From Haliotis rufescens (lineage: Eukaryota): a DNA stretch of 64,000 nt. Positions 31,154-39,909 of the stretch are shown piece after piece (position 1 is the first letter of the stretch; each line of letters opens with the position of its first letter). The position numbers were made by a program, and so were the translations under genes. The stretch is taken from positions 496,001-560,000 of the forward strand of contig NW_025963790.1 of assembly GCF_023055435.1 (NCBI RefSeq), written 5' to 3'. A model generated the notes under the pieces. That model had not been told where the DNA came from. It was given only the letters and a program-made list of their open reading frames with translations, and searched no databases.

Positions 31154-31160
31154 TATATAA
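31154..31160 (+). promoter_or_regulatory. TATA box (TATATAA) of the Pif-like gene
   Basis: gtgTATATAAggg lies about 25-30 nt before a TCA initiator-like site and about 90 nt before a strong donor (G|GTAAGA at 31246). Confidence 0.65.
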
Positions 31161-31182
31161 GGGTGTCACTGTCATTTACTTC

Positions 31183-31245
31183 ACAGGGCCTGTGACCAGC
31201 GAGACCGTGACTGCAGAACCTGCCTGGCTAGACTATTTTTATAGG
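31183..31245 (+). other. Putative non-coding exon 1 (5' UTR); start approximate
   Basis: Lies between the TATA box and the GTAAGA donor at 31246. The next acceptor (ttttcgtttag, AG at 31665-31666) is 24 nt before the ATG. Confidence 0.6.
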
Positions 31246-37188: not shown

Positions 37189-37220
<32 letters not shown>

Positions 37221-39909
37221 CACGTAAAAACAACAAATGTAATGAGATAAAGGTGGAAACTAGGAAAGCCAACAGTAGACTTGATTCGTGTATTGTATCA
37301 ACATTCCGACAACCCCACACAGCTGTTCTTACAAACAAGTGATATACCTATCAAGCTATTGCTACTCAGCATGTACAAAACCAACCGCCGTCTCTTGCCC
37401 AGTATAAAGAGGGACCTTTGTTACATAAAAATTTATCTGTCGCTGTCGCATTTGATTCAGGTAATAATGATGAGTGCATTGCAAAGCTATTACTGGATAA
37501 AATGTGTTCGGGTTATTTATGTCGCAAATTTTAGTGAGTCCGTGATTAATAGTTTCTTATCTATTGCAGAACACCGCCGCCATGAACAGTGTCAAGTTGA
37601 CGGTAAACAATAACTTGATGAAAGCTGAAGTTAACAGTGCCTACGACCAAAGAACGTTCTCTGGTAAAACACGCAGGATATTCTAATATTACTGATCTAT
37701 GTTATTTCCCGGGGATTCTTAAATATATTGACATGTTGAATATACAATGAGCGAAACGTACCATTATCCTCGGTCCATGGCGGTACCACTGGGGCAGGAC
37801 ATATTCATGGTTTTGCCAACATTGGTATGATTGCTCTATTTTTGATAGTGATTCCTGAGTTTGTTGCTTCCATAGGCAAGCATGACTGTTCGTACCATAA
37901 GCCTGATGTTAATGTGATACATTGTATTGTGTAGCGACGATATCATCCCAGGAGGTTTATGGTAGATATTCAGAGACATATTCGGTCTGTAAATAATCGA
38001 GTCTGGGCCAGATAATCCAGTGATGGATATCATGAGCATCGATCCACGCAATTTTGGATACGATAACATGCATCAACCAAGTCAGCAAGCCTGACCACCC
38101 GATCTCGTTAGTCGCCTCTTACGACAGGCATAGTCGCTGGTGTCATAACAGATTTTCATTGATCCATACATATACTTATGACTGCTAGTTTGCCTTTGAC
38201 GCCCAATGGAATCTGTTTATTCCCTCGCATTGTCGTTTTATGTTTAAGATTTTAAGATTTTCAATATTGTTTCAATCTGAACACCCTTCTAGAAACCTAC
38301 TTTTCCGCCATATTGTTGTTTTCAGAGGGTTATTTGTAATCTCGAGCAGATTTAACTTAATATCTACAGTACCCCCGGTATGGTAACCTGTAATCGTCTT
38401 AACGTCTTAACCATAGTACTCAAAGGAATCAAACTGAATCATATCCACTGCAATATAACGTTGAGACTAGAGAATCGGGACTCATTGTTCTGTGGCGTTG
38501 CCGTTTTGAATGTCAATATGTCCGGGTTTAAATATCATAATGGTTGTGTAAATAGCTGTTACCAACCATAATGTTGATATTCGCATGACATATTGTATTG
38601 TGTAACGACGGACCTTTTCTGTATCTCCAGGCAACATCAGACGGAGCCAGTGTGCGATCCAAGTGGGTCATGGGAATGGTTATGACTTCTTCCGTGGTCA
38701 ACTTGATGAAGTAAGTTAACCACAGTGTTATATATGTTACAGTCTATGTGTAAGATGAATGAAATTTCCCGAAGGCAATTTGCAAAACGCCAAAATATTT
38801 AAGAATTTGTTTGTTTGGACTGGATAAAAGTTATAAAGGGTTAAATACATCACAACAGGCTAATAGTGCTGGGATTAGAAACTAAAAATTAAAAAAGAAA
38901 TTCCTTGAAAATACAGTGAAAATTTCAGCCATTTTATACGTTTTCTACAATTGCCCCTTGGAACATTTAACGTTAACACACGCATAATTGAGTTGTGTTC
39001 ACGTCGACCATCTTGTTTAGAGAGAAACCCCGTTAAACCGGAACCGCTAGTCCGCCGACTATACCTTCCAGTTGACTACTGTTTGAACGTCTATCTATTA
39101 CAAAAAGGCATTCTTCGCATCCATGATTCGTTCATCTGGAAATGTGTTTAATCGGGGACATTTCAATGGGAGCAGGCCCGGTTTGATCAACAGAGGTGGA
39201 TTAACAGACATGTTTATGTAATACTCATTCATACTTTATGGAATAGGCACATAACATGCAGATGCTTAACTATTCATGAACAATTCGACCTGAACTGTTA
39301 CAAAAACAGATGGTTTCAATATACGTGCGTAATAGTACCATGTAGGTGAGTGAGTGAGTATAGTTTAACGCCGCTATTAGCAACATTGCAGGGGCACGGG
39401 TGGCCTAGTCGTCTAAGACGCCACGAGTCGTTGTGCAGAGTGGCGTCCCTTGGTACGCAAAAAGCTATGATTGAGGGTTCGAATCCCGGTTCGCACCGAT
39501 TATGTTTCTAGGTTTGTCAGCACCATACCCATGTTCGTAGGTTTCACCAAAGTGGTAAACATCTGAGACCTGCATCACTTGGGGCTTTCCTCCCACATTT
39601 CGCTGACACGCCTTGATATAACTGGAATATTGTTAAAAGCGGCGTTAAACTCACTCACTGACTAGCAACATTACAGCAGCCGGGGCACCACACATTGTTC
39701 CCAAGCGGGAAGTCGAACCCGGGTCGTCGGCGTTACGAGCGAACACTTTAACCACTAGGCTACCCAGCCGCGTAGTTGTATCATGTAACTCTTAAGAAAC
39801 ACATGATCTACAATAAAATGAATTTATTTACGATTTTTTCATTCATTGTTTCATTCTGTTTCAGCTGAAGGTGTATACATGCATCCCTACCCCTCTGCTG
39901 ACCAAGTAA
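31691..39909 (+). CDS. Pif/BMSP-like secreted matrix protein (SP-VWA-TSP1-CBM14-CBM14-like-LamG), 585 aa; join(31691..31757,32231..32773,34378..34560,34906..35112,35690..35881,36623..36969,37570..37663,38631..38710,39865..39909)
   Basis: Manual splicing: every intron is GT..AG and the phases (1,1,1,1,1,0,1,0) join into one open frame of 1758 nt ending in TAA at 39907-39909. The domain order VWA + chitin-binding + LamG is that of the molluscan Pif/BMSP family. Confidence 0.88.
32231..32773 (+). CDS. Coding exon 2: von Willebrand factor A domain with intact MIDAS motif
   Basis: tttttttcag acceptor; [16 protein letters not shown]...GTNT...IVITDGRS...IGVG...ELKNIAS...VCK; donor G|GTGAGA at 32774. 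Confidence 0.95.
32915..33400 (+). mobile_element. Penelope-like RT relic in the intron after the VWA exon
   Basis: Nucleotide similarity to 22095-22620 (ccccatgggcaccaattg..., ttcaggtctattgatgatctgatatcgttcaataacc). Confidence 0.75.
34378..34560 (+). CDS. Coding exon 3: thrombospondin type-1 repeat
   Basis: VDGNWTEW...CSASCGGG...[19 protein letters not shown]...ETCNTECP; phase 1-1 exon with ctacag acceptor and GT at 34561. Confidence 0.92.
34906..35112 (+). CDS. Coding exon 4: chitin-binding type-2 (CBM14/peritrophin-A) domain
   Basis: [69 protein letters not shown]. This frame is not listed in the ORF track. ttttccag acceptor; GTGCGT donor at 35113. Confidence 0.92.
   Translation: MVIHAMGVGMTMVWGTCVTRRTVPVITSACDLGQPFHPTTGPVPLVFTGTKESWFVIGRLTSNVPQEV
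35690..35881 (+). CDS. Coding exon 5: degenerate second chitin-binding-like domain
   Basis: [64 protein letters not shown]; tgtgcag acceptor; GTACGT donor at 35882. Confidence 0.85.
35922..36183 (+). mobile_element. SINE family A, intronic
   Basis: Full-length family match. Confidence 0.87.
36623..36969 (+). CDS. Coding exon 6: laminin-G/concanavalin-A-like domain, first part
   Basis: [19 protein letters not shown]...[12 protein letters not shown]...QAIVTNADC...; tttcag acceptor; GTAAGT donor at 36970. Confidence 0.9.
37570..37663 (+). CDS. Coding exon 7: LamG-like domain, continued
   Basis: ctattgcag|[31 protein letters not shown](G)|GTAAAA; phase 0-1 fits both neighbours. Confidence 0.8.
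37983..38137 (-). mobile_element. SINE family A fragment, intronic, antisense
   Basis: Family match. Confidence 0.82.
38631..38710 (+). CDS. Coding exon 8: LamG-like domain, continued
   Basis: tctccag|[33 protein letters not shown]; carries the typical LamG 'F.G.LDE' end motif. Confidence 0.88.
39391..39662 (+). mobile_element. SINE family B nested in an antisense SINE C (39345-39775), in the last intron
   Basis: TSD tagcaacatt(g/a)ca at 39378-39390 and 39663-39675. Confidence 0.85.
39865..39909 (+). CDS. Coding exon 9 (terminal): [14 protein letters not shown]
   Basis: ttctgtttcag acceptor, phase 0; completes the 'DE-L.VY.C' motif; stop TAA. Confidence 0.82.
   Translation: MKVYTCIPTPLLTK

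What the first reader, a model, noticed from the sequence alone, without database searches (positions are those of the whole stretch)
31154..39909. Intact Pif/BMSP-like gene with a TSP1 module between the VWA and chitin-binding domains, and no Pif80 tail
Seen in sequence: a complete 585-aa secreted protein, SP-VWA(MIDAS DGSDS/T/D)-TSP1-CBM14-degenerate CBM14-LamG, whose VWA, TSP1 and both chitin-binding exons are symmetric phase 1-1 modules. Established: VWA + chitin-binding + LamG defines the molluscan Pif/BMSP shell-matrix family, and canonical pearl-oyster Pif has no TSP1 and carries an acidic Pif80 region. Inference: this is an exon-shuffled subfamily that may act as a chitin-protein linker in shell, radula or another chitinous matrix, rather than as a direct aragonite binder. 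I cannot tell whether this architecture is already catalogued.
Basis: partly seen in the sequence, partly recalled or inferred. Interest (0 to 1): 0.75.

Follow-up and report, generated by a model that had tools for sequence, protein, structure and literature searches.

The report
Abalone Pif-family chitin-linker gene
This is an intact, spliced red-abalone gene, already in RefSeq as 'protein PIF-like', for a secreted member of the known Pif/BMSP shell-protein family that likely ties other matrix proteins to chitin; its flagged thrombospondin insert was already reported in an abalone nacre protein, so the finding is mostly ordinary.

Summary
Observation confirmed; novelty refuted. Nine coding exons give a 585-aa protein identical to RefSeq XP_046331628.2, Haliotis rufescens 'protein PIF-like'. 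The VWA-TSP1 and TSP1-CBM14 junctions are spliced in 4 of 4 probable RNA runs. Its VWA groups with Pif/BMSP proteins but outside the Pif subfamily. Lacking Pif80 is the family norm (Shimizu 2024). The VWA-TSP1-chitin-binding-LamG order is in print: H. laevigata nacre protein idb_25730 (Mann 2018). That protein is a distant paralogue, and no peptide matching this gene's clade turned up in that proteome, so its tissue is open. Not found in print: the gene is one of a likely tandem abalone set whose TSP1 count runs from 0 to 12. The H. cracherodii orthologue has none, one contig suggests a 1.8-kb genomic deletion, and some TSP1 modules are 85-93% identical between paralogues whose VWA domains share 57-58%, which points to exon exchange. 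Likely role: chitin-protein linker, not aragonite binder.

The parts
31154..31161 (+). TATA box-like motif upstream of the non-coding first exon
   Evidence: sequence; function not tested
31200..31245 (+). non-coding exon 1 (5' end approximate), GT donor
   Evidence: spliced joint to exon 2 in 2 of 4 runs, up to 45 nt upstream covered
31666..31757 (+). exon 2: 5' UTR, ATG at 31691, predicted signal peptide (aa 1-22), phase-1 donor
32231..32773 (+). exon 3: VWA domain with complete MIDAS, flanked by Cys24 and Cys202; phase 1-1
34378..34560 (+). exon 4: TSP1 module, six Cys, WxxW and CxxSCG motifs; phase 1-1; absent from the H. cracherodii orthologue
34906..35112 (+). exon 5: CBM14 (peritrophin-A) domain with Pro308, Gly310, Leu311, Trp322 spaced as the chitin-binding residues of human CHIT1; phase 1-1
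35690..35881 (+). exon 6: short linker plus four-Cys CBM14-like module conserved across the family, without the Trp platform; phase 1-1
36623..36969 (+). exon 7: N-terminal part of the uninterrupted LamG/ConA-like domain
37570..37663 (+). exon 8: LamG middle
38631..38710 (+). exon 9: LamG C-terminal conserved block
39865..39909 (+). exon 10 coding part: last LamG strand and stop; no acidic tail
   Evidence: loose ends in 2 of 4 runs
32936..34772 (.). 1,837-bp stretch holding the TSP1 exon that is skipped by an intron-to-intron contig in run X14
   Evidence: one contig at depth 4.6

Best explanation
The gene is a spliced, intact abalone member of the Pif/BMSP family whose predicted secreted product likely works as a linker in the shell's organic matrix: the CBM14 domain would grip chitin, the metal-site VWA domain would bind other matrix proteins, and the TSP1 module is likely an optional spacer between them. 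Shown: exon structure, splicing, domain order, family placement, complete MIDAS, no acidic insert, TSP1 count of 0 to 12 among abalone relatives. Inferred: secretion, chitin binding, partner binding, shell location. The TSP1 exon is a phase 1-1 cassette that is likely duplicated, lost and exchanged among neighbouring paralogues by unequal recombination or gene conversion.
For: Identity to XP_046331628.2. Spliced joints in four studies, one 1,213-nt contig running from exon 2 through VWA, TSP1 and CBM14 with no differences. VWA tree: on the side of PfuPif, Lgi236719 and a Sushi-bearing Pinctada protein, split from other VWA domains at 98/91 (68 rows) and 99 SH-aLRT after dropping five long rows (63 rows). 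Pif97 VWA pulls down Pif80, nacrein and protease inhibitors, and most family genes are mantle-expressed (PMC11291548). The same domain order occurs in nacre: idb_25730, 13-19 peptides in all six nacre fractions, none in the prismatic columns of Table 1 (PMC6003135). Pro308/Gly310/Leu311/Trp322 match the spacing of CHIT1 Pro451/Gly453/Leu454/Trp465. From LamG start to C-terminus 187 aa with 4% Asp, against 547 aa with 26% Asp in PfuPif. TSP1 optional: orthologue P0004 is 96/94/93% identical in VWA/CBM/LamG but has no TSP1; run X14 splices VWA straight to CBM14.
Against: The nacre protein is a distant paralogue: its H. rufescens counterpart P0103 shares only 45% VWA, 39% CBM and 34% LamG with this protein. 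Five motifs diagnostic of this clade gave no peptide hit in the 27 supplementary files of the H. laevigata shell proteome; that is weak, since the search databases came from mantle, tentacle and haemolymph of another species. No tissue label was visible for any run. Peritrophin-A domains do not always bind chitin (EHEP, Der p 23; PMC10619976). No binding was tested. The AlphaFold model gives no information on TSP1 or on domain packing (pLDDT under 50 for 203-266, pTM 0.39).
Confidence: 0.55

Rival explanations
1. Same linker mechanism, but deployed in a chitinous matrix other than the shell (radula membrane, gut peritrophic lining, epithelial mucus coat).
For: No peptide hit for this clade in the adult shell proteome supplements. 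The clade is separate from the nacre paralogue in VWA and LamG trees. A Trp at the CHIT1 Trp465 position occurs in 8 of 42 matched VWA-CBM-LamG proteins (49 examined), all eight from this abalone clade, as in chitinases and tachycitin. An annelid tubeworm protein has the same domain order.
Against: Most Pif/BMSP genes studied are mantle-expressed; chiton Pif97-like expression is highest in girdle. The eight Trp carriers are one lineage, and Tyr or Phe stands there in ten other rows. The proteome negative is weak.
Confidence: 0.3
2. A digestive or defensive binding protein, catching algal polyphenols or microbial surfaces, as the sea-hare peritrophin-A protein EHEP does.
For: EHEP is among the weak solved-structure matches of the CBM14 exon (E 0.08) and binds phlorotannin, not chitin. 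Rapid module turnover and VWA-less paralogues (P0036, P0037, P0039) fit a fast-evolving binding family.
Against: Chitinase and tachycitin domains match far better (E 7e-8, 8e-5). EHEP has no VWA or LamG. The CHIT1-type platform is kept.
Confidence: 0.1
3. A true Pif equivalent that is cleaved and binds aragonite directly.
For: Family membership; net acidic protein (pI 4.8); an R-x-x-R motif at 442-445.
Against: No acidic or low-complexity insert; the motif lies inside the folded LamG domain; grouping with the Pif subfamily is disfavoured, though only marginally (AU p 0.046).
Confidence: 0.05

Closest known systems
RefSeq XP_046331628.2, 'protein PIF-like', Haliotis rufescens
   Same: Identical, 585 of 585 aa.
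   Different: Automatic annotation only; the precomputed Pfam list omits its TSP1; no paper found naming it.
H. laevigata nacre protein idb_25730 (Mann et al. 2018, PMC6003135) and its H. rufescens counterpart LOC124124837 (P0103)
   Same: VWA-TSP1-chitin-binding-ConA/LamG order, uninterrupted LamG without acidic insert, complete MIDAS in P0103.
   Different: Five TSP1 (ten in P0103) against one; three chitin-type units against two; no Trp platform; 34-45% domain identity; separate clade. It was found in nacre, this gene's product was not.
Pinctada fucata Pif (Swiss-Prot C7G0B5; Pif97 + Pif80)
   Same: Signal peptide, VWA, CBM14, CBM-like, LamG; same VWA clade.
   Different: Pif has no TSP1, a degenerate MIDAS (D-S-D-S-G at the five positions), a LamG split by Asp/Lys/Arg-rich sequence and a cleavage into two chains.
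PifCCP and PifN subfamilies (Shimizu et al. 2024, PMC11291548)
   Same: Modules inserted between VWA and chitin-binding domains; complete LG domain.
   Different: Insert is Sushi/CCP repeats or poly-Thr, in bivalves; Haliotis was not among the genomes sampled and TSP is not mentioned.
Limpet Pif-like/BMSP-like shell proteins (Lottia Lgi236719, Lgi228264; Patella BSMP J7Q5J6)
   Same: VWA-CBM14-CBM-like-LamG, no Pif80, full MIDAS.
   Different: Thr/Ser-rich linker where the abalone genes carry TSP1.

Membership tests
Pif/BMSP family (Shimizu 2024) | VWA domain falls in the clade of PfuPif and BMSP-like proteins, apart from other VWA domains | tested here: met
   98/91 in 68-row tree, 99 in 63-row tree. 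Outgroup was 9 VWA domains from my own hits, not Shimizu's 55; MgaBMSP itself was not identified among the rows.
Pif/BMSP family (Shimizu 2024) | CBM_14 and CBM_14-like domains downstream of VWA | tested here: met
Pif/BMSP family (Shimizu 2024) | Conserved N- and C-terminal LG blocks downstream of the chitin-binding domains | tested here: met
   profile retrieves PfuPif at E 6e-37
Pif/BMSP family (Shimizu 2024) | Mantle expression or presence in shell matrix (typical, not defining) | not testable with these tools
   Runs carry no tissue label; no clade peptide in another species' shell proteome
Pif subfamily (true Pif) | Asp-rich insert splitting the LG domain (Pif80) | tested here: not met
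   187 aa, 4% Asp against 547 aa, 26% Asp
Pif subfamily (true Pif) | VWA groups with PfuPif | tested here: not met
   PfuPif forms its own 100/99 clade with two oyster proteins; forced union AU p 0.046, marginal
Pif subfamily (true Pif) | Dibasic cleavage into two chains; aragonite binding | not testable with these tools
   No RMKR-like site between domains seen
BMSP subfamily | VWA in the BMSP clade; four tandem VWA in bivalves, two in gastropods | tested here: inconclusive
   Single VWA; no named MgaBMSP or Lgi140660 row in my trees
PifCCP subfamily | Sushi/CCP repeats between VWA and CB | tested here: not met
   TSP1 instead; VWA does not group with P0006
CBM14 chitin binders (CHIT1 type) | Pro, Gly, Leu pocket and terminal Trp | tested here: met
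   First module only, by spacing against PMC5459812; binding itself untested

The most novel reading that the evidence does not exclude
Abalones carry an undescribed tandem expansion of Pif/BMSP genes in which the TSP1 exon is a swappable spacer, exchanged between old paralogues and gained or lost between sibling species, and this Trp-platform clade has moved out of the adult shell to another chitinous matrix such as the larval shell, radula or gut lining.
Probability: 0.3. Interest if true: 0.5.

Novelty: new member of a known kind. Interest (0 to 1): 0.3.

Why it matters
Abalone nacre is a main model of biomineralisation, yet Haliotis was not sampled in the 2024 Pif/BMSP classification. This locus shows that abalones have at least two TSP1-bearing lineages of the family, one known from nacre and one of unknown tissue. 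Orthologues with and without the TSP1 exon give a natural pair for asking what the module does. It adds a subfamily to a known family and an example of ongoing exon shuffling; it is not a new mechanism.

Tried and rejected
No whole genome is held for this window, so gene order in the cluster rests on shared contig length (927,538) and adjacent accessions. No run is on record as RNA; spliced GT-AG joints are the evidence for transcripts, and contig depth was not used as expression level. The full-length AlphaFold model could not place TSP1 and its fold search returned only VWA structures. The C-terminal model's top matches were jelly-roll subdomains of bacterial neurotoxin heavy chains at 12-18% identity; I read that as a generic LamG/ConA fold (own knowledge) and not as kinship. 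The TSP1 tree has 61 columns and 7 starred branches of 81, and no starred branch forces mixing of gene groups, so exon exchange rests on pairwise identities. A single clade for all VWA-bearing abalone TSP1 genes was neither found nor rejected (AU p 0.19), so the number of TSP1 insertions is open. The idea that idb_25730 is this gene's orthologue was rejected. Annelid proteins with the same domain order (P0066, unnamed P0047) have VWA domains outside the Pif/BMSP side, so they are not counted as orthologues. Paper searches for the accessions or for a TSP1-bearing Pif subfamily found only Mann 2018; subscription papers, including Suzuki 2009, 2011 and 2013, are outside the library and were not read. 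Shimizu's supplementary tables were not read. Earlier scan notes: eight shown of 22, none relevant; none by sequence.

Full report
Observation. The gene is there as described. Coding exons at 31691-31757, 32231-32773, 34378-34560, 34906-35112, 35690-35881, 36623-36969, 37570-37663, 38631-38710 and 39865-39909 join through eight GT-AG introns into one frame of 585 codons, and the VWA, TSP1, CBM14 and CBM-like exons are each a multiple of three long and phase 1-1. The product is identical to RefSeq XP_046331628.2, 'protein PIF-like' of Haliotis rufescens, so the window is inferred to be red abalone. Pfam confirms VWA, TSP_1 and CBM_14 above cut-off; the second chitin-type exon and LamG score weakly. 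A model of the last 230 residues is confident and all-beta (pLDDT 89), and a profile of that region retrieves Swiss-Prot Pif.

Splicing. Twenty of 24 listed runs hold the VWA exon; none is on record as RNA. I laid eight of them. In the first four, from four studies, seven coding junctions including VWA-TSP1 and TSP1-CBM14 appear as GT-AG joints in 4 of 4 runs, the 5' UTR intron in 2 of 4, and the last junction as loose ends in 2 of 4. One 1,213-nt contig spans exon 2 to exon 6 without a difference and another spans TSP1 to exon 9.

Family. In a VWA tree of 68 domains the protein lies with PfuPif, Lottia Lgi236719 and a Sushi-bearing Pinctada protein, separated at 98/91 from collagen-VI-like, matrilin-like, brachiopod and annelid domains; with five long rows dropped the split has 99 SH-aLRT. 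It is not in the Pif subfamily, which forms its own 100/99 clade; forcing it in is only marginally rejected (p 0.046). Shimizu et al. 2024 (PMC11291548; abstract, Methods, first part of Results and whole Discussion read) define the family by that VWA clade, find the acidic LG insert in Pif-subfamily proteins only (6 of 34 cluster apart), and describe Sushi repeats and poly-Thr inserted between VWA and chitin-binding domains. So 'no Pif80' is the usual state, and the TSP1 sits at a known insertion site. That paper has no mention of TSP and did not sample a Haliotis genome.

Already catalogued. Mann et al. 2018 (PMC6003135; passages, Table 1 row, Table S2 rows, Fig. S2M and peptide rows seen) list H. 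laevigata idb_25730 as VWA, five TSP1, two chitin-binding and ConA-like domains, found in nacre only with 13-19 peptides in each of six fractions, and note the likeness to Pif and BMSP. By eye it differs from H. rufescens LOC124124837 (P0103, ten TSP1) at 6 of its first 95 residues. That gene is a distant paralogue of the window's: 45% VWA, 39% CBM, 34% LamG. Five motifs of the window's clade gave no peptide hit in the 27 supplementary files, a weak negative because the databases came from another species.

Wider set. Among the best 150 representatives of the profile search, 32 had VWA plus LamG, and 3 of those also had TSP1, all Haliotis; three more had TSP1 without a detected VWA, two Haliotis and one Gigantopelta aegis with 12 TSP1. 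Seven H. rufescens protein records share a contig length of 927,538 and neighbouring accessions with this protein (itself included), and six H. cracherodii relatives share one of 20,514,301, which suggests tandem clusters; gene order could not be read. TSP1 counts among 16 gastropod family members run 0, 1, 2, 3, 4, 6, 10, 12 and 13. A tubeworm protein and an unnamed one also read VWA-TSP1-Thr-rich-CBM-LamG, but their VWA domains fall outside the Pif/BMSP side.

The TSP1 exon turns over. The H. cracherodii orthologue P0004 is 96, 94 and 93% identical in VWA, CBM14 and LamG and lacks TSP1 exactly at the exon limits. Of four more runs, X13 and X16 splice VWA to TSP1, X20 looks like DNA and covers the exon with its flank, and X14 splices VWA straight to CBM14. 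Six of seven residue changes listed for X14's VWA exon match P0004. X14 also holds one 337-nt contig at depth 4.6 that joins 32935 to 34773, as a genomic loss of 1,837 bp would give; a paralogous origin of that contig or of X20's piece is not excluded. Because the sister paralogues carry TSP1, loss is the simpler reading. This gene's TSP1 is 85% identical to modules of paralogues whose VWA is 58% identical; LOC124114874 TSP1-2 and a module of P0010 share 93% against 57% VWA and 47% LamG, higher than the best 84% between LOC124114874 and its H. asinina or H. rubra counterparts. Its first half resembles one module type and its end another, both present in tandem in paralogue P0036. This points to exchange between paralogues. 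The TSP1 tree is too short to force it, and only proteins were compared.

Mechanism. Shown: a complete MIDAS (as in 50 of 59 family VWA domains, but not in PfuPif), and a LamG-to-end stretch of 187 aa with 4% Asp against 547 aa with 26% Asp in Pif. The first CBM14 matches chitinase and tachycitin domains best and has Pro308, Gly310, Leu311 and Trp322 spaced as the residues that matter for chitin binding in human CHIT1 (PMC5459812, passages). That Trp is present in 8 of 42 matched family proteins, all in this abalone clade, and absent from Pif and the nacre paralogue; ten others have Tyr or Phe. The second module lacks it. Inferred: a secreted linker that holds chitin with CBM14 and recruits matrix proteins with VWA, as Pif97's VWA does for Pif80, nacrein and protease inhibitors. 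TSP1 would act as a dispensable rod; its WxxW and CxxSCG motifs are the usual C-mannosylation and O-fucosylation sites (own knowledge, untested). Shell matrix is the most likely site (0.55), another chitinous matrix second (0.3). A digestive or defensive role is possible, since peritrophin-A domains of EHEP do not bind chitin (PMC10619976, passages). Direct aragonite binding is unlikely. PMC13425148 and PMC7850002 were seen as passages only.

Verdict. A real, expressed gene, correctly read, in a known family, with an architecture in print since 2018. What my searches did not find described is the abalone expansion, its TSP1 turnover and the tissue of this clade. New member of a known kind; interest 0.3.

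Noticed in passing
window 18465-18930 (+): Orphan TSP1 exon with a phase-1 AG acceptor, interrupted by a roughly 290-bp repeat with a short flanking duplication; likely a relic of another family member.
   Followed up: partly
window 21557-21697 (+): Orphan 3' part of a VWA exon (E 1e-11 to the family profile); AG acceptor present, AT where the GT donor would be. Second relic upstream of the intact gene.
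   Followed up: partly
P0036 (XP_046331636.2): Close paralogue without VWA: three near-identical TSP1-TSP1-CBM14-CBM-like blocks then LamG, 92-95% identical to this gene in CBM and LamG; real triplication or assembly artefact not checked.
   Followed up: partly
P0037, P0039: Close paralogues reduced to signal peptide, two CBM14 and LamG; junctions of this type show in runs X14 and X16.
   Followed up: no
P0107/P0237 (Gigantopelta aegis): 12-13 TSP1, CBM14, CBM-like and LamG without VWA; LamG groups weakly (83) with the abalone nacre paralogue, hinting that one TSP1 insertion predates Haliotis.
   Followed up: partly
P0066 (Lamellibrachia satsuma), P0047 (unnamed): Annelid-type proteins with VWA, TSP1, Thr-rich linker, CBM and LamG, apparently assembled independently of the molluscan family.
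   Followed up: partly
window 8680-9738 and 44832-45335 (+): Tc1/mariner-type transposase remnants (HTH and DDE_3 hits).
   Followed up: partly
window 28637-29344, 22004-22549, 32944-33440: Retroelement-like fragments; zf-RVT E 0.0035 for the first, no Pfam hit for the second; the third is a multi-copy repeat inside the stretch skipped in run X14.
   Followed up: no
window 20854-21337, 25766-26910, 49048-50813, 52526-53300: Minisatellite arrays of 53, 53, 9 and 68 bp units.
   Followed up: no
P0171 (Pinctada fucata Pif): The VWA shown to pull down shell proteins has a degenerate MIDAS, as do two oyster Pif-like proteins, so Pif97 binding may not need the metal site that most of the family keeps.
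   Followed up: no
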